Shown here: in pieces, positions 2,969 through 50,320 of the stretch | How the letters are laid out: each line of letters begins with the position of its first letter | Numbering within the stretch: position 1 is the first letter of the stretch | Assembly (NCBI RefSeq): GCF_009914755.1 | Contig: NC_060943.1 | DNA from: the human T2T-CHM13v2.0 reference genome, Homo sapiens | Direction: 5' to 3' (one strand) | DNA length: 64,000 nucleotides | Program-made: the position numbers and the translations under genes | The notes under the pieces: generated by a model | Told to the model about the DNA's origin: nothing | Databases searched by the model: none | The model's input: the letters and a program-made list of their open reading frames with translations, nothing else

Positions 2969-3018
2969 CTGCAGGAGGGAGCTGATTGCTGGATGAAGGG
3001 TTTCCGACGGGTCCCTGC
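2969..3018 (-). CDS. PDE4C: PDE4C linker region 1 exon (QGPVGNPSSSNQLPPA)
   Basis: 50 nt, gcag| and |gtaaa; its phases join exons 3293-3220 and 2611-2499 in frame. Confidence 0.92.
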
Positions 3019-5750: not shown

Positions 5751-6626
5751 TCTCCTGTTTCTAACATGTGCGTGATGTAGCCCATCCCCGAGAGCTCTTT
5801 GAGGGGGTTACAACCGAACATCCAAAGACTGCGACTGGATGACCATATTGCAAAGGGACAAACTGAGATCTAGCTCACATGGTGGACACGTGGACTGGAA
5901 ACAGCTTCTTGGGCTCTTCTACCTGGAGGAGGCCGGGGTTCTGCCTAGCTCCTGCGTGCGCCTTAGTCTAGAGAGACCCCACTCCTAGCCAACTTGCTCA
6001 CACCCTTGGCTACCTGCCACGCCCCCAGCGTTCCAGGCTCCACCCTCAGCCCATAAGGCTCCGCCCCACGGCCGCCGACCACGCCCCCAGCTAGCCGGGT
6101 CTTGCCCTAGGCTCCCCCACTCCTCCACTTCATCTTCAGCCTGAACGTTCCGCCTGTTATCTTCCACCTCCGGGTCTTTGCACAGGCCGTGCTTTCTGCC
6201 CGGCCCACCCTCCTCCCTCTCCACACTACCTGTCCCGTTCTACCCTCAAACCCTGTCTTTCCCTCTGGCTCCTCCTCTTTGGGGTCAGAGGTCAGAGAAA
6301 GGGCGTAGGGCAAGAACTGGGGCGCTAGAGAAGGCGGTGACCTGGGGGTGGGTTTTCAAGAAGGGCAGGCGGAAGCGGCACCGACAGGAAGACAACCGGG
6401 ACCGCCTGAGACTCGGAGCTCCCGGCCGAGGGCCAGTGTCCGGCTGGTCCCGGCCAAGACTTTTGGGTCAAAGGTCACCGTATCCCCGTCCACGAGCTGG
6501 GTCGGCACCCCGCGTAGGCTCAGATCTGGGTAGAGGTGGGGGATTTGGCAGCATTCGGTCCAAGTATGACCGGGTCTGAGTTGGGTCTGATCACGTCGAA
6601 TTGGACTTGGTCACGAAGAGTTTGTT

Positions 6627-38862: not shown

Positions 38863-39210
38863 CATCCTGTAGGATTTTTTAGGGGTGAGGGACTTGAGGT
38901 GAGTGCTCTGGGCCAGGTCCCAGGCACATTTCTAGAGTGCACTGGGGACAGTTTCCATCTGGGACGGGCTGGACACCACCCCACTACCTGTACGTGGATA
39001 TGGCAGAGGCACAGCTGAGACCACATTGGCAGTGCCTGACCTCCAGGAAAGATTTGAGGTCCCCATGCTGGCCACAGACCCCAGATGCATACTGCATGGT
39101 TGGTAACTTCAGAGTTCTCTTCCCTCTGGGATGTTCCAGATTCCCCCACTATACCCAAGCCACTTCCATTAACCCAGAACACATCACCCAAGATCTAGGC
39201 TGTGGAGGAC

Positions 39211-39216
39211 TTTATT
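39211..39216 (-). terminator. IQCN: IQCN AATAAA poly(A) signal
   Basis: tttatt on the plus strand about 60 nt past the stop at 39278. Confidence 0.85.
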
Positions 39217-39277
39217 CATTAGACCCAGAGAGCCATGAGTGCCTCCCACGAAGTCCCCACTGCAGGGAGCCAGGGTC

Positions 39278-40204
39278 CTAGATGCCAGGCCAATGCATGT
39301 GCCGTGAGCTGGCCGAGGGGTCTGCTGGTCCCAAGAGCGCCTCTGTGTTCTTCAGACAGCTCCGGGTATGGTGGCCTCGCCAGGTGGCTTGAACTATCTT
39401 CGCTGCCATTTGCTGCTGCCTCATCTGCTGGCGGATCTTAAAGCCCCTCCAGGCGGACTGGATGGCTGTGGCCGCTTTGTCCTGGCGATGCGGCTGCCTG
39501 GGACTCAGGGCAGCCAGCTGGTAGGCGGAGGCCCAAGACACTGCCCCGGGGCCCTCAGTGCCCTGGCCCATGCCCTGCACCACACGGGTGGGCTGTGTGC
39601 GTCCACAGGTATGACAGGTGCGAGGGCTGGAGCCCACTAGCATCACCACGCTGGGCGGGCTCCCGATCCTGGAGCTCAGGGAGTGGCAGACGCTGCAAGC
39701 GTGTGCCTGGCAGGACTGGAAGCAGCGATGGTCAGATACTGTCCTGGCTCTGCCATCCTGGAACCAGCTTCGGTCAGACATGACCCCGGCCCGGCTGCCC
39801 AGCTCCACCCACGTGACGGGGTGGAGCATCTGCCAGTGCCGGGCTTGGTCCCGGCGGGTGCTGTAGCCGCGCCAGGCAGACTGGATGGTCGTGGTGGCTC
39901 TGCAGAGGTGTGCCAGGTTCCGCCGCACACGGTAGCCGCGCCAAGTAGCTTGGATGACCATGGCCCCCCGGTGCCACAGCCGGATCCTGCGACGCGCCAG
40001 GTAGCCACGGACGCCCGCCTGGATAGTGATCACTGCGAGGATGCGGATCTCCTCTGCAGCCTGCATGGACACCATTGGCTCCCCGGACCGCCTGGGAGGC
40101 ACCACCGCCTTGTTGCGCCAGGTGTCCCAGGACGCAGCACCCCTGGCTGGCTCCCATGCGCGGTTCCACGATTGGCCACCAACCACACCAGCGTCCGCGG
40201 GGCC
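39278..40204 (-). CDS. IQCN: IQCN terminal coding exon (308 aa, five IQ motifs)
   Basis: actatactccag|GGC acceptor; IQAGVRG, IQATWRG, IQSAWRG (twice) and VQATWRG motifs; TAG at 39280-39278. Confidence 0.93.
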   Translation of the reverse strand, partial: GPADAGVVGGQSWNRAWEPARGAASWDTWRNKAVVPPRRSGEPMVSMQAAEEIRILAVITIQAGVRGYLARRRIRLWHRGAMVIQATWRGYRVRRNLAHLCRATTTIQSAWRGYSTRRDQARHWQMLHPVTWVELGSRAGVMSDRSWFQDGRARTVSDHRCFQSCQAHACSVCHSLSSRIGSPPSVVMLVGSSPRTCHTCGRTQPTRVVQGMGQGTEGPGAVSWASAYQLAALSPRQPHRQDKAATAIQSAWRGFKIRQQMRQQQMAAKIVQATWRGHHTRSCLKNTEALLGPADPSASSRHMHWPGI

Positions 40205-43200
40205 CTGGAGTATAGTGGAGTTCAGGGATGCCTTGTGACTAACGGCAGGATTCTGGGGGCTATAGGAGTCCTGCCGTCTCCACGGTGACTCCTGGTTAAA
40301 AAGGGGTGGCAGGGAACCACTTGGGGAAGACTCATAGCCTAGAGACACCCTCCGAACTCCCGGGGCCAGCGGAGGAATGACCGAGGAGTGTGTCATCTCC
40401 CCAGTGCGGATGACGGGCCTTACCTCTGCAGAGGGCCTGTGGGTGGGGTTTGCACCACTTCGGGCTGAGGCCTGGGATGGTTGTCTTTGCACATACTGTA
40501 AGGGCCTAACCCTGGCCACAGAACTTTCTAGCAGTTCTGGAACAATCCTACCATGCACGGATCTGTAGGAATTTTTAGGGCCCATGGCGTCCCAGCGGCT
40601 GCTCGGAGCCATGTTTCCAGACACTGTTTTCTGGAGTGGATTGGGGACAGCTTCTGTCTGGAAGGGACTGGACAATGCCCTTCTAGCCGAGGACGGATAT
40701 AGTGGCACATGTGAGACCATGCTGGTGGTCCCTGACCTCTGAAGAAGACTAGGATTCCCCATCCTGCCCACAGACACTGAAAGCAATCTGAAAGCCTCAG
40801 TACTGCCACGGGCCAGCTGGGGTGATCCTGAGACTACATTAGAAGCCACTGTACCCTGAGAGTGATTTGGGGGTATGACGTGAGTGACAGACCCCTGTTG
40901 ATAAACTGAGGGGGACTTAGTGGCTAAACCCGGGGCCTGGAAAGGGACAGGGACCATGCCACTAGCATGGCTGGGAGCCACCTCCCTTGGGGAAGAGACC
41001 CTTTCTCAGACAGGGACCTATGATCATGGCCCCCATCAGCTCCCAGAGGACTGGAGTACATCCACTGGGTTGCACCAGTGACCCTGGCTTTGCTGAATAG
41101 GTCATTGGATCCACTTGATCCTGACACTTGGAACACAGCCTCATCCAATTCTCCTAGCTTGGCTTGGTCCCCTGTGACCCCAGATGGCATTATCCTAGCA
41201 TCTTGGCTCAATTGTAAGGCTCTTGATAGAACCGTGGGCACTCGGTGTAGACTCCTCACTGTGCCACTAGCTGCCGGGGCTGAGGAGTGACCTGGAGCCA
41301 GACTGGTGGTGTGGGGCATCTGCAAGGGGGCTAAAGACCTCTCCCCAGCCAGGGCTTTGAGGTAAGGAGGGGCAGTGATGTCAATCACCATGGGCCCCTT
41401 GGAGCAGCTCTGAGCCACACTAGAGGCCCCCATCATTGGCACAGAACCAGGGGGGACAACTGGGCTCACCCGACTCACTACTGAACCTGGGAGCAAGTTT
41501 GGAGCAGCTAAGCTAGCGGAGGGTCTTACAGATAGACTTGGCTTCTTTCTGTCTGCCATCAGACTGGGAGCCACCCAACTGGACACAGAGCCTGCGGGAA
41601 GGCTGTGACCCATGCCTCGGATGGTGGAGCCCGGGGGAAGGCTGGAGGTTATGCCACCAGGCAGAGTGCCTGGGACTGCGCCCGTGCTCATTCTACTGGC
41701 TACAAAACCTCCTGCCGCACCACGACCAGCCCTGCTCTTCAGAGAGTCCTGCGGAATCACATCTCTCTGCTGGTAACTGGGTGGGACCATGGATGCCTCA
41801 GAAGGGTGCCAGCAGTCTATGTTTTTTGGAATAACCACACTGATCTGGGAGCTGCTGGGGTCCATGCTGTTCAGGGAAAGATTAGACTGAGTCACGGCCA
41901 GTCTGTTGGGCACTGAAGCCAGAGAGGGGCTGGGGGCCATCCCTGTGGTTCCAGAGGGATGTGTCAAAGGGCCACCTGCCTCTAAGACCTGGGATGCAAG
42001 GGAAGCCATGCCATTGGCCACCTGACATTGACTTTGGCCCATGCCAGTTGCTATGGTTCTCCAGGGGAGATTCCCAGCTAGGCCAGGAGATGTGGTCCCC
42101 TGAGACCCACTGGGGAACATAGCATCAGCCAAAGGCTCCTGGGGATGGCTTACAGCCACACCCCTGAACAGAGGCGTGATTCACTGGCCTACACAACAGG
42201 CCTCCTCATCAGCATGAGAGAGATTTGGTGTTGAAACACTAACCACAGAGGGTGGACACACATGCCTCCCACCAACCCTGGGTGGATGATGGAACCCAAG
42301 GGACACGTCGTTGAACTTGAAGTCCGGGGGGCTGGATACCATCTCACTAACCATCAGAGGTTCTTCACATAGGTTCACCCCAGTACCCAGGGATGGCTGG
42401 TTCAGACCCTGGTCCATATTTCCAGCCACAGAGGGATATGGTCCACCCAGGCTAACTGAAACAAACGCTGATGGGTGACACAGACACGGGGCTACTGAGT
42501 CCACCCTTGAACACTGCAGATTTGAATCCAGCCTAGAGCCCCAGCATGGCTCATTGAGGCCATGACATGTACCACTGACCACAGATGGCTGGGATCGGCT
42601 TGGGGCCAACCTAGTGTCCGGGGGTGACTGAGCCAGGCTTAGGGCTTCCGTGTGGGCCACAGATGGTGGGAATAGGCTGGGGGCTATAGCTGGCTCGGCT
42701 AGGCTGGAGGCTAGGGTACAGGATGAATTTGTCTTGCCTGGACTGGAGGCCACAGATGGTTGGGCTTGCCTTGGGGATACTGCAGTGGTCTGAGATGGGT
42801 GGGCTAGGCTGGAGCCCGCCCCACTGGCCACATATGGGTGAGCTAGACTTGGAGACAACCCATGGGGTCCTGATGGGTGGGCTAGGCTTGGGGACACACC
42901 AATGGCTTGAGATGGCTGGGCTGGGCTTAAGGACACCACACAGGTCATAGGTTGGTGGGCTAGCCTTGAAGACATCCCTGTGGCTTGAGACGGCTGGGCT
43001 AGGCTTGGGGATACACCACAGGCCATAGGTTGATGAGCTGGTCTTAAGGGCACTGCAGTGGTGGCCTGAGATAGCTGGGCAAGGCTTGGGGACACCTCAC
43101 TGGGCATAGATCGATGAACCTGGCTTGGGGACACCATACAGGTCATAGATGCATGAGCTCTGCTAGGGGACATCCTGCTGGTTATAGATGCGTGAGCTTG

Positions 43201-46200
43201 GTTTGGGGACACCCTGGAGGCCACTGGTGGGTAATCTTGTCTAGGGGACATCCCACTGGCTTGAGATGGCTGGGCTAGGCTTGAGGAAACCCTACTGGCC
43301 ACAGATTGGTGGGCTACACTTGGGGACACCCCAGTGGCCTGAGATGGCCAGGTCAAGCTTGGGGATTCCCCAGTGGACTGAGGAGGCTGGGCCAGGCTTG
43401 GAGACTCCCGAATGGCCATAGATGGGTGAGCTAGGGTTGGGGACACTCCAATGGTGTGAAATGGCATGGCTAGGCTTGGGGACACTCCAATGGTCTGAGA
43501 TGGCATGGCTAGGCTTGGGGACACTCCAATAGTCTGAGATGACATGGCTAGGCTTGGGGACACTCTGATGGTCAGAGATGGCTGGGTCAGGCTTGGAGAC
43601 TCCCCAGTGGGCTGAGATGGGTAGGCTGGGCTTGGGGACATCTCAGTGGGCTGAGATGGGTAGGCTGGGCTTGGGGACTCCCCAGTGACCACAGATGGGT
43701 CGCCTGGGCTTGGGGACACCTCAGTGGCCATAAATGGGTAGGCTGGGCTTGGGAACACCTCAGTGCGCTGATATGACTGGGCCAGGCTTGGAGACTCCCC
43801 AGTGACCACAGATGGGTAGGCTGAGCTTGGGGACACCTCAGTGGGCTGAGATGGCTGGGCAAGGCTAGGGGACTCCCCAGTGGCCACACATGGATAGTCT
43901 GGGCTTGGGGACACCTCAGTGGGCTGAAATGGGTAGCCTGGGCTTGGGGACACCTCAGTGGCCATAGATAGGTAGCCTGAGCTTGGGGACATCTCAGTAG
44001 GCTGAGATGAGTAGTCTGGGCTTGGGGACACTTCAGTGGCCACAGATAGGTAGCCTGAGCTTGGGGACACCTCAGTGAGCTGAGATGGGTAGCCTGGGCT
44101 TGGGGACACCTCAGTGGCCACAGATAGGTAGCCTGAGCTTGGGGATATCTCAGTGGGCTGATATGGGTAGGTTGGGCTTGGGGACACCTCAGTGGCCACA
44201 GATGGGTATTCTGGGCTTGGGGACATCTCAATGGCCATAGATAGGTAGCCTGGGTTTGGGGACACCTCAGTGGGCTGATATGAGTAGGCTGCACTTGGGG
44301 ACACCTCAGTGAGCTGATATGGGTGGGCTGGGCTTGGAGATACCTCAGTGGGCTGAAATGGCTGTGCCAGGGTTGGGTACTCCCTAATGGCCTGAGATGG
44401 GTAGGTTGGACTTGGGGACACCTCAGTGGGCTGAAATGGCTGAGCCAGCATTGGGTACTCCCCAACAGACTGAGATGGGTAGTCTGGACTTGGAGACACC
44501 CCAAAGGCTTGAGATGGCTGGGCCAGATTTGAGGTTACCCCAGGGGCTTGAGATGGCTGGGCTAGGCTTGAGGGCTCCCCACTGTCCATAGATGGCTGGG
44601 CTAGGTTTTGGGACCCCCAGTTAGCCATTGATTGGTGACCTTGGTCTGAGGCCACTCTAAAGGTCCTTGATGGGTGTCCTCGGCTTGGGGACCTCCTAGT
44701 CACCACAGATGGCTGTGCTGGTCTTGGTGTCACTCTATTAGGCACAGAGGAGTGTGGTAGCCTTGGGGTCACCCAATTACCCATAGATGGGCAGGTTAGC
44801 CTTGGGGATACCTTACTGGATGCTATATGCTGGGATAGGCTTGGGGCCAGCCTACTGAACCCTGATGCCTGGCCTAGGTTTGGGGCTACCCTACTGGCCA
44901 GTGTAGCCTGGGACACAATTGGGGCCAAGCTCTTGGCCACAGATGGTGGCTTATATGCAGTGGAGACCACAGTACCTAAAGACAGAGTCCTCCTCAGCTC
45001 TGTCTTGACGGTTGCCTGGGACACCTCAATCAGATTCACAGAGCTCTTGCCTAAGGAGAACTTGTGGATCTCAGCCTCTGAGCCCCAGTGAACACGCAAG
45101 GTCAAGCAGTTAGACACTGAGCTGTGTTGGAAACTGGGCACTTTCTCCGAGGCTGGAGTGGGCCGGTAGGGGAAGTGTAGGGTCATGTACCTATAGCCGG
45201 TTTCAGTCTCTTGCGTATCCTTAAACCTCTGGAGTGTCCCCATGGACTCCGGAGGAAAAACAGACTTCACCGCAAGGTCCCCTTCTAAACTGCTTTCCCG
45301 TGACTCATCTATCTTGTTGACGGCAGGCAGGCTGGCCACAGACATAGTGGAAAGGCTGAGGGAACTAGAACTTTGCAGAGAGCTTTCGGAATTGTTCTCC
45401 TGACTGTAGGTCACAAAGCCCTGGGAGAAGCTCCTGGCCAGGTCACCGTCTCGATCCTGTGGCAAACCACCTACTGGCTCACCGAGGATGGATGGCTGGT
45501 GGTCTGTTGCTAGCTTCTGGGGGCAGAGCAGGGCAGACACAGAACCCTGTGTTCGATTCCTCCCCTGTCCACAGACAGATGTCTTGGGACGAACTTGAGC
45601 CAATGCACTGCCGGGGGAAGCTTGAAACAGACCATGAGTCTTGGATGCCTGAGTTTTGGTCACCATGGTGACCTGCAAGGGACTTGGGGCCCCCTTGTCT
45701 ATCACCTCCCTAGTACCCGGGGGGGCCTGTTTGCGATTTGGGGGCTGATACCTCCTCCCCAGGCTCTCCCTGGAAGCCCTGGATGCCTGCTGCTGGCCTC
45801 TGGCCACTAAGGGTTGGTAGAGACCACGATGTACCCCTGAGGACTGACACCAAGGCAGGCCCCCACAGGTGAGGTAAGGCTGGTGAACATGGGCAGCCCT
45901 CCCACCACCCACGCTGCAAGGAAGCCTACCCGAGGCCACCCTGCCCTCCCTGGTCGATAGATAAGAGGCCACCCTGCTGACCACATGTGGCCTGTGGCAG
46001 CTCGGGGCTGTGCCATAGATCACAGAGGGCTGGTTCATGCTTGGGCCCACACAGTTGGCAATGAGAGGCTGCCACAGACTCGGGGGTGGCTGCATGTGGG
46101 ACAGCTTGAGCAAACTGGGGCCCTCCCCACTCCCCTCGGGGTTAAAATCTGATGCCAATGTGCCAGGCTCCAGGGTCGGGCATGCTTCTTCCTTTTGGAA

Positions 46201-46462
46201 CTTGGGGCTCAAATCCAGGTTTGAGGAGAAGTCCCTGCTGGACTCCATCATCTCCCGGGACAGCATGGGATACAGGCCAGTGATCAGGGGACCCTGGTGA
46301 ATGCTGGTGATGACGCTACCCATCACCGAGGCTCCCACAGTGACCACAGATAAGCAGGGTGACCCCCACAAGATGGCCCCATCAATCCCCCATCTCCTCC
46401 AAGGGCCCGGCAGGTTGGCCCATGGTGAAACAACCCCAGATCCCAACCTGGGAATCCCTGAC
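40205..46462 (-). pseudogene. IQCN: IQCN last intron made of a disabled continuation of the IQCN reading frame (intronised coding sequence)
   Basis: ORFs 42181..46446 (1421 aa), 40924..42159 (411 aa) and 39278..40981 tile the whole intron; one TGA and two frameshifts; no Alus. Confidence 0.8.
42570..44950 (-). repeat. Degenerate 39-bp (13-aa) tandem repeat, about 55-60 copies, consensus approximately VSPSPAYPSQPTE
   Basis: Recurrent plus-strand gggcttggggacacctcagtgg; most homogeneous at 43570-44500. Confidence 0.92.

Positions 46463-50320
<3,858 letters not shown>

What the first reader, a model, noticed from the sequence alone, without database searches (positions are those of the whole stretch)
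40205..46462. IQCN last intron is a fossil giant coding exon (intronised / exitron-like)
Seen: minus-strand ORFs tile the whole stretch from 49626 to 39278. The exon-3 frame stays open to 46385. A second frame is open from 46479 to 42184, hits a single TGA (42183-42181, possibly CGA>TGA), and continues in the same frame (ITPLFRGVAVSH...) to 40927. The original frame reopens at 41005 and runs straight into the terminal exon. So only three lesions interrupt about 10.3 kb: a frameshift in 46385-46479, one stop, and a frameshift in 40927-41005 (one extra G in caagggaggtgg would give SLPQG-EVAPSH). The intron is 6258 nt, a multiple of 3, and both splice sites lie inside open frame. The 11 kb from about 38865 to 49870 contains no Alu although the flanks are heavily Alu-filled. 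Inference: ancestral IQCN encoded a protein of about 3450 aa from one exon, and this lineage now expresses a shortened form by splicing out the damaged middle.
Basis: partly seen in the sequence, partly recalled or inferred. Interest (0 to 1): 0.88.

Follow-up and report, generated by a model that had tools for sequence, protein, structure and literature searches.

The report
Dead long-isoform coding inside IQCN intron
The last intron of the human sperm gene IQCN is the broken remains of about 2,000 codons that dog, pig, cattle and horse gene models still read as part of a giant version of the protein, so humans appear to have lost that giant version fairly recently.

Summary
On the minus strand, open frames tile 49648-39280 with three breaks. 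These are a frame change at about 46381-46387, a TGA at 42183-42181 and a frame change at about 40982-40986. Off-path frames carry 3.5-4.8% stops per codon.

The stretch is real former coding sequence. Predicted IQCN proteins of 2,317-3,111 aa from bison, cattle, pig, three canids and two horses align colinearly with the whole intron. The 39-bp tandem array covers only about a third of the intron.

The short-isoform junction (…SK|GP.DAG…) occurs in 22 of 26 short orthologues checked, from primates to mouse and elephant. The splice is therefore ancient and coexists with the intact long frame elsewhere.

Best reading: this is an ancient, frame-preserving alternative intron inside a roughly 10-kb coding exon, whose retained form has died in the human lineage. 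Three lesions in 6.2 kb suggest a recent loss, after the Old World monkey split by rough, recalled rates. No primate DNA, RNA or variant data could be examined.

The parts
46463..49626 (-). IQCN exon 3 coding part (frame p%3=1). It carries IQ motif 1. An alternative internal donor makes the exon end at 47024.
   Evidence: RefSeq rows; Pfam IQ hit in this frame; 52-72% identity to the long orthologues.
46385..46462 (-). First 26 codons past donor 1, still in the exon-3 frame (VRDSQVGIWGCFTMGQPAGPLEEMGD). They are homologous to the orthologues' read-through sequence.
   Evidence: Blastp of this piece hits bison, pig and horse (46-55% identity over 20-26 aa) but gives no hit in dog, so 3 of 4. 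Orthologue windows are shown.
46381..46387 (-). Lesion 1, a frame change. The DNA reads GGGGAT-TGAT-GGGGCC where orthologues read M-G-D-G-A-M-L, a 4-nt surplus that creates the TGA at 46384-46382.
   Evidence: Horse residue 1077 ends the frame-1 match at 46385 and starts the frame-0 match at 46383. Reading is continuous here in bison, cattle, pig, camel, two horses and tamarin.
42184..46383 (-). Long-isoform-specific coding remnant, piece A (frame p%3=0, 1400 codons), rich in Ser and Pro.
   Evidence: Open frame. Colinear with pig residues 217-1842 and C. aureus residues 3-1919. Camel matches at 45% over aa 8-358 and sheep at 37% over aa 222-542. Single copy in the genome.
42754..44897 (-). 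Array of 13-aa (39-bp) repeats inside piece A. There are 47 in-register units plus diverged copies.
   Evidence: TRF; units listed. The same repeat type (…SGVAPSLAQPSVT…) is present in all long orthologues.
42181..42183 (-). Lesion 2, an in-frame TGA.
   Evidence: It aligns with E in ruminants and with a variable position in pig and dog.
40981..42180 (-). Long-isoform-specific coding remnant, piece B (same frame, 400 codons).
   Evidence: It shows 32-41% local identity to all four long orthologues tested, or 42-47% in global segment alignment.
40982..40986 (-). Lesion 3, a frame change back to the exon frame. Human reads LPQG in frame 0 and then EVAPSH in frame 1, where 7 orthologues have LPxxQRPLLEEVxP.
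40205..40975 (-). Long-isoform-specific coding remnant, piece C (frame p%3=1, 257 codons). It runs without a break into the terminal exon.
   Evidence: It shows 38-48% identity to the four long orthologues. A bonobo model uses its last 29 codons as coding.
39278..40204 (-). IQCN terminal exon coding part, with five IQ motifs.
   Evidence: RefSeq rows; Pfam IQ with 5 stretches.

Best explanation
IQCN's last roughly 10.4 kb was ancestrally one giant coding exon containing an internal, frame-preserving alternative intron of the exitron type.

The two forms:
- The donor AAG|GT lies inside the codons K-V-R and the acceptor CAG|GG inside L-Q-G-P. Using them removes a multiple of 3 nt and joins the N-terminal part (IQ1) directly to the C-terminal cluster of five IQ motifs. 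This short form of roughly 1,300-1,600 aa is annotated in all placental orders sampled.
- Not using them gives a long form of roughly 2,300-3,100 aa as the models are annotated. It carries about 1,700-2,200 extra Ser/Pro/Ala/Gly/Val-rich residues, including a 13-aa repeat array. This frame is still intact in canid, pig and bovid models.

In the human lineage the long frame has been broken three times: a 4-nt surplus, a TGA, and a deletion of about 19 nt. Only the spliced forms can now link the N-terminus to IQ2-6. An unspliced human mRNA would stop 26 codons past the donor, giving about 1,085 aa without IQ2-6.

What is shown: the frames, the lesions, colinear homology, the ancient junction, and single-copy status. 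What is inferred: that the long form is translated and selected elsewhere, that it was ancestral, and that the human loss is recent.
For: - Frames and lesions.
- Long orthologue models: one search gave 12 hits among 2788 candidates, 8 of them 2317-3111 aa. Sequences of four (bison, pig, one canid, one horse) were read.
- Colinearity: every one of the 9 human segments found its counterpart in order in the orthologues that contain it. All 53 of 53 tblastn matches inside the intron are on the path frames, none off it.
- Intact long-specific stretches: 2070 aa in bison and 2232 aa in pig between the donor- and acceptor-equivalents, and 2139-2321 aa in canids counted from their Met-1 start.
- Lesion sites are continuous in the orthologues.
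- The short junction is conserved in 22 of 26 short orthologues checked, including mouse and elephant. The mouse knock-out of exons 3 and 4 removed 9,832 bp (PMC9728048, passages), which fits the same layout.
- No excess human divergence: the ratio of human-to-Laurasiatherian distance over Laurasiatherian-to-Laurasiatherian distance is 1.42-1.53 in intron segments and 1.62-1.74 in exons.
- The lesion count fits a short neutral period.
- There is no paralogue in the genome.
Against: - All long proteins are computational models from NCBI Gnomon, UniProt (unreviewed entries) or submitters. Both horse models are flagged LOW QUALITY.
- The three canid models begin at an internal Met, exactly at the human lesion-1 site, rather than reading through from exon 3.
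- I saw no RNA, ribosome or peptide evidence for any species.
- Amino-acid conservation of the long-specific part is low, 57-61% among Laurasiatheria against 75-80% in the exons. By my own rough estimate this is not far above neutral drift, so the case for selection rests on frame integrity.
- Third-position GC in the intron pieces (0.52-0.65) lacks the rise seen in exon 3 (0.70) and exon 4 (0.78).
- The tamarin model uses only fragments of the intron, which could mean the tamarin frame is broken too.
- No primate, rodent or afrotherian DNA could be read. Search length limits mean that primate proteins above about 2,500 aa would have been missed (limit 2506 aa, words from the first 500 residues only; sheep words, limit 3136 aa).
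Confidence: 0.85

Rival explanations
1. The giant exon was intact until damage occurred in this lineage, and an intron then arose (intronisation) to splice the damaged middle out.
For: The lesions lie inside the intron. The intron length is a multiple of 3 and both splice sites lie in open frame.
Against: The same junction is present in 22 of 26 short orthologues checked across placental orders, including species with an intact long frame: dog, cattle and horse short forms next to their long forms. The donor K-V-R and acceptor L-Q-G-P contexts are conserved in the long proteins.
Confidence: 0.04
2. The open frames are a by-product of composition, meaning a GC-rich sequence plus an in-frame tandem repeat, and never coded for protein.
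For: A 39-bp array fills about 2.1 kb. Codon-position GC shows no clear coding signal in the intron pieces.
Against: About 4.1 kb of open frame is non-repetitive. The off-path frames of the same DNA carry 3.5-4.8% stops per codon. The non-repeat pieces align in frame with proteins of five or more Laurasiatherian lineages at 32-48% identity.
Confidence: 0.01
3. The long frame is not dead in all humans. One or more of the three lesions would be polymorphic or peculiar to this assembly, or the 1,380-codon frame from the first in-frame ATG after lesion 1 would still be translated from an intron-retaining or internally started mRNA.
For: The very small number of lesions. Canid models start translation at the very site of lesion 1, which shows that a separate start there is conceivable.
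Against: RefSeq lists no long human model on this assembly. Three independent lesions would all need to be variable. The human frame has lost the Met used in canids. A product ending at the TGA would lack all of the IQ2-6 cluster. No variant, RNA or peptide data could be consulted.
Confidence: 0.06
4. The long form is a Laurasiatherian novelty, an intron turned into exon there, and the human frame is open for an unrelated reason.
For: All intact long models found are Laurasiatherian.
Against: A 6-kb frame with only three breaks cannot persist unselected in the human lineage since the split from Laurasiatheria. Even since the tamarin split, P(3 or fewer lesions) is 8e-7 or less at the rates used. 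The tamarin reads continuously through lesion 1. My searches could not have seen long primate, rodent or afrotherian proteins above the length limits.
Confidence: 0.03

Closest known systems
Long predicted IQCN isoforms of Laurasiatheria: bison P0121, cattle P0122, pig P0123, canids P0124-P0126, horses P0127-P0128
   Same: The order of segments is the same: exon-3 tail, unique Ser/Pro-rich part, 13-aa repeat array, second unique part, and the 'RRVSLGYESSP…LQGP' lead-in to the IQ-motif exon.
   Different: The human copy has two frame changes and one stop. It lacks roughly 45 residues after lesion 3, a count I made by eye, not with an alignment tool. It also carries a Tyr-containing repeat subtype shared with tamarin. 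Repeat numbers differ widely between species.
Exitrons, meaning introns inside protein-coding exons (concept recalled from Marquez et al. 2015; not read here)
   Same: Both flanks are coding, the ends are GT-AG, the length is a multiple of 3, and spliced and unspliced forms both encode protein. Both forms are annotated for Canis lupus and for Bos and Equus species.
   Different: At 6.3 kb it is far larger than the exitrons I recall, which are tens to hundreds of nt. In human the retained form is no longer open. Actual alternative use was not tested with RNA.
Unitary pseudogenes and lineage-specific loss of coding sequence (general concept, recalled)
   Same: The sequence is homologous to coding sequence that is intact in other mammals, it carries disabling lesions, and no functional paralogue exists in the genome.
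   Different: Only the isoform-specific middle is dead. The gene itself stays essential for male fertility through its spliced form (PMC9728048 and PMC11749140, passages).

Membership tests
Exitron (alternative intron within a coding exon) | Intron flanked on both sides by coding sequence of what is otherwise one exon | tested here: met
   The frames run into and out of the intron. The orthologue long proteins read straight across both splice-site positions.
Exitron (alternative intron within a coding exon) | Canonical splice sites and a length that keeps the frame | tested here: met
   The ends are GT…AG. The lengths 6258 and 6819 nt are both multiples of 3.
Exitron (alternative intron within a coding exon) | The retained form has an uninterrupted reading frame | tested here: not met
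   The human copy has two frame changes and one TGA. The feature is met in the bison, pig and canid models.
Exitron (alternative intron within a coding exon) | Both spliced and retained mRNAs are actually made | not testable with these tools
   No RNA data were available. Both forms appear only as annotated protein models for dog, cattle and horse relatives.
Pseudogenised (dead) coding sequence | Clear homology to coding sequence that is intact in other species | tested here: met
   53 of 53 matches are on the path frames.
Pseudogenised (dead) coding sequence | Disabling lesions relative to the intact relatives | tested here: met
   Three lesions were located against the orthologues.
Pseudogenised (dead) coding sequence | Neutral evolution since inactivation | tested here: inconclusive
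   The distance ratios show no excess human divergence, but the test is insensitive because this part evolves fast everywhere. No nucleotide alignment was available for dN/dS.
Lineage-specific intronisation (new intron made from exon) | The splice junction is restricted to the lineage that carries the damage | tested here: not met
   The junction SK|GPxDAG occurs in 22 of 26 short orthologues checked, from primates to mouse and elephant.
IQCN gene (IQ motif containing N) | IQ motifs, with one N-terminal and a C-terminal cluster | tested here: met
   Pfam PF00612 matches once in the exon-3 frame and five times in the terminal frame, and not at all in the intron pieces.

The most novel reading that the evidence does not exclude
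The giant IQCN isoform was lost only within the apes, possibly only in the human/African-ape line. Monkeys and most other mammals would then still make a sperm-head protein of about 3,000 aa or more that humans cannot make. That would be a recent, isoform-specific gene loss in a gene needed for male fertility. It would also raise the question of whether mouse and other animal models of IQCN infertility test a protein that men do not have.
Probability: 0.4. Interest if true: 0.75.

Novelty: new member of a known kind. Interest (0 to 1): 0.6.

Why it matters
IQCN is a proven cause of fertilisation failure and male infertility in men and mice (PMC9728048 and PMC11749140, passages).

- If other mammals make a form with about 2,000 extra residues that humans have lost, then human and animal IQCN are not equivalent. 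Knock-outs that remove exons 3 and 4 together with the intron remove more in the animal than a patient's mutation does.
- Variant interpretation in the intron differs between species.
- The locus is a clean natural example of how an alternative intron inside a coding exon lets one isoform die while the gene survives.
- The three lesions can be dated simply by looking at ape genomes.
- It also flags an annotation gap. The long forms sit in databases as 'uncharacterized' or 'LOW QUALITY' models.
- I found no paper that discusses them. Searches: IQCN (75 papers, 20 listed), KIAA1683 (51 papers, 25 listed), IQCN+exitron (0), IQCN+intron retention (2, with intron retention discussed for IQCH, not IQCN, in the one I opened) and IQCN+human-specific (1, unrelated).

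Tried and rejected
- **First protein search.** The 1432-aa intron frame as query gave only the tamarin model, 1 hit among 2928 candidates with 5072 sample-only candidates left out. It uses words from the first 500 residues only and sees proteins of 788-2506 aa, so its near-blank result meant little. The long forms appeared only when a sheep model was used as the query.
- **Relative-rate test on protein distances.** It showed no excess human divergence, but I judge it too insensitive to date the loss, because the long-specific part evolves fast in all lineages.
- **Codon-position GC.** It gave no clear coding signal in the intron pieces, with GC3 of 0.52-0.65 against 0.70 and 0.78 in the exons. 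I report this as weak evidence against, not as support.
- **Pfam on the intron frames.** No domain was found.
- **Paralogue search in the human genome.** It returned only the locus itself and a small relic at 38863-39078.
- **Literature.** Nothing on a long IQCN isoform. No protein sizes are given in PMC9728048. The bovine KIAA1683 paper concerns gene duplication, not isoforms.
- **Structure prediction.** I did not run it on the long-specific part. With about 10 sequences, low confidence could not have been told apart from disorder.
- **Dating.** It uses indel-to-substitution ratios (0.04-0.14), a frameshifting share of indels (0.83) and branch lengths that I recalled. None of these comes from a tool.
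Full report
**Observation.**
- On the minus strand, the exon-3 frame of IQCN is open from 49648 to a TGA at 46384-46382.
- A second frame is open from 46479 to a TGA at 42183-42181, and then on to 40927.
- The first frame reopens at 41005 and runs into the annotated terminal exon and its stop.
- RefSeq lists four mRNAs with two alternative donors inside exon 3 (exon ends 46463 or 47024) and one acceptor (exon start 40204). Both introns are multiples of 3, at 6258 and 6819 nt.
- The splice sites are CAAG|GTCAGG, ACACG|GTAGGC and …CTCCAG|GGCC.
- No masked repeat of 100 bp or more lies between 38869 and 49867.
- Inside the intron the five off-path frames carry 73-101 stops each, or 3.5-4.8% per codon. 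A 1432-codon open stretch therefore has a chance probability of 1e-22 or less.
- A 39-bp tandem array (42754-44621, about 48 copies, with diverged copies to 44897) explains about a third of the openness. The rest is non-repetitive.

**Orthologue searches.**
- A search with the exon-3 frame returned 163 hits among 1933 candidates, of which 120 were listed; 6067 sample-only candidates were left out. It showed that placental IQCN is usually annotated at about 1,300-1,600 aa.
- I ran BLASTP of the 120 proteins stored at that point against the three intron pieces. Four matched piece A: a camel model, two sheep-hybrid models and a tamarin model. None matched piece B, and one bonobo model matched the end of piece C.
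- The camel protein reads from the exon-3 frame straight into the second human frame and matches human residues 8-358 at 45%.
- The sheep proteins match residues 222-542 at 37-40%. They then match the end of piece A, the position of the human TGA and the start of piece B.
- Using the sheep protein as query (12 hits among 2788 candidates, 5177 left out) uncovered long IQCN models. These are bison 3099 aa, cattle 2317 aa, pig 2772 aa, three canids at 2447-2629 aa, and two horses at 3017 and 3111 aa (both LOW QUALITY).

**Colinearity.**
- The long proteins carry the same 13-aa repeat type as the human array and end in the IQ-motif exon.
- In tblastn against the window they are colinear with the whole 10 kb. 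For example, horse residues 7-1077 match 49621-46385 in frame 1, residues 1077-1997 and 1561-2500 match 46383-40981 in frame 0, and residues 2572-3111 match 40921-39281 in frame 1.
- Each of my nine human segments has its counterpart in order in the orthologues that contain it.
- The intron pieces are single-copy in the human genome.

**The three lesions.**
- Lesion 1 lies directly after M-G-D. The human DNA has four surplus bases where bison, cattle, pig, camel, both horses and tamarin read …(E/R/G)(M/G)G(D/N)GA… without interruption. The three canid models begin at that very Met.
- Lesion 2, the TGA, aligns with Glu in ruminants and with a variable position in pig and dog.
- Lesion 3 lies where seven orthologues read LPxxQRPLLEEVxP. 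The human reads LPQG in one frame and EVAPSH in the other, so six residues and one base are missing.

- I checked 32 hand-picked proteins out of the 129 stored.
- Of the 26 short-type proteins, 22 show the same junction, …SK|GP.DAG… (elephant …SK|GLTDTG…). They cover apes, monkeys, lemurs, colugo, carnivores, camelid, rhinoceros, hippopotamus, horse, cattle, whale, pika, rabbit, vole, mouse, chinchilla and elephant.
- The human 1180-aa form shows the donor-2 junction. Two proteins did not match my pattern. One, a desman model, reads …VLQ|GP… like the long forms.
- Four long forms read K-V-R across the donor position and L-Q-G-P across the acceptor position.
- The mouse knock-out of exons 3 and 4 removed 9,832 bp (PMC9728048, passages), which fits the same layout.
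- The splice is therefore ancestral to placentals and coexists with an intact long frame. It did not arise to remove damage.

**Interpretation.** The last 10 kb of IQCN is an old giant coding exon with an internal, frame-preserving alternative intron. The long form adds about 1,700-2,200 Ser/Pro/Ala/Gly/Val-rich residues between IQ1 and IQ2-6. The human pieces are 58-60% SPAGVT, and Pfam finds no domain in them. In human the long frame is dead, and an unspliced mRNA would end 26 codons after the donor.

**Dating (rough).**
- About 3% of random substitutions in the path would create a stop.
- I combined this with recalled indel-to-substitution ratios of 0.04-0.14. Three lesions then correspond to 0.003-0.008 neutral substitutions per site, with a 95% range of 0.0007-0.022.
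- With recalled branch lengths, P(3 or fewer lesions) is 0.2-0.8 for the time since the chimpanzee split.
- It is 0.0001-0.1 since the orangutan split, 0.0015 or less since the macaque split, and 8e-7 or less since the tamarin split.
- Lesion 1 is absent in tamarin.
- The loss therefore looks recent, probably within the apes, but no primate DNA could be read to test this.

**Evidence against, and limits.**
- Every long protein is a computational model, and the horse models are flagged LOW QUALITY.
- The canid models start internally rather than reading through from exon 3.
- The long-specific part is only 57-61% identical among Laurasiatheria, against 75-80% in the exons.
- The GC3 signal is absent in the intron pieces.
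- The tamarin model uses only fragments of the intron.
- The distance-ratio test is insensitive.
- My three protein searches could not see primate proteins above about 2,500 aa or proteins above 3,136 aa.
- No RNA, peptide or variant data were available, and supplements of papers were closed.

**Literature.** IQCN is described as a four-exon, testis-specific gene whose loss causes fertilisation failure (PMC9728048 and PMC11749140, passages). I found no paper on a long isoform or an exitron in IQCN. The searches are, and passages were read.

**Verdict.** This is a decayed long-isoform-specific coding segment inside an ancient alternative intron. It is a new member of known kinds (exitron; lineage-specific loss of coding sequence), with real biological interest because of the gene's role in human fertility and the apparent recency of the loss.

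Noticed in passing
window 38867-39079 (minus strand), just downstream of the IQCN 3' end: A 216-bp stretch is 68.5% identical to 40563-40775, which lies inside piece C. It matches the dog and horse long proteins at 45-53% and contains one TAG. It looks like an old relic copy of a fragment of the long-specific region. Cattle are reported to carry a duplicated KIAA1683 gene (PMC3276122, passages).
   Followed up: partly
window 46381-46393; proteins P0124-P0126: All three canid long IQCN models start at the Met of 'MGDGAML', exactly where the human frame breaks, instead of reading through from exon 3 as the pig, bison, cattle, camel and horse models do. The reason is unknown. It could be an internal start, an upstream break in canids, or a different transcript.
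   Followed up: no
window 42754-44621: Many human repeat units are a Tyr-containing subtype (EVSPSPxYPSQPT), partly in 26-aa double units. The tamarin model shares this subtype. Laurasiatherian arrays use SGVAPSLAQPSVT-type units. Core-motif counts range from 10 (bison) to 60 (wolf and jackal), with 33 in the human piece.
   Followed up: partly
RefSeq rows for IQCN in the window: By the coordinates given, NM_001145304.2 encodes 1367 aa (13+3164+927 nt) and NM_025249.4 encodes 1180 aa. PMC9728048 (passage) cites NM_001145304.2 as encoding 1,180 amino acids.
   Followed up: yes
proteins P0035, P0121, P0124: There are lineage-specific tandem expansions elsewhere in IQCN. A lemur model has a repeat of about 21 aa in exon 3 (…PPCVPQGQPATSPTKALCHER…). 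Bison has a 10-aa repeat (SLTPADSLGA) just before the acceptor position. Dog has an AHIIPQSPS repeat after the lesion-3 position. The whole protein seems prone to in-frame repeat growth.
   Followed up: no
protein P0011 (bonobo isoform X2, 1209 aa); window about 40205-40291: A bonobo model joins donor 2 to an acceptor 29 codons upstream of the usual one, so it uses the last part of piece C as coding sequence. No such human transcript is listed in RefSeq for this window.
   Followed up: no
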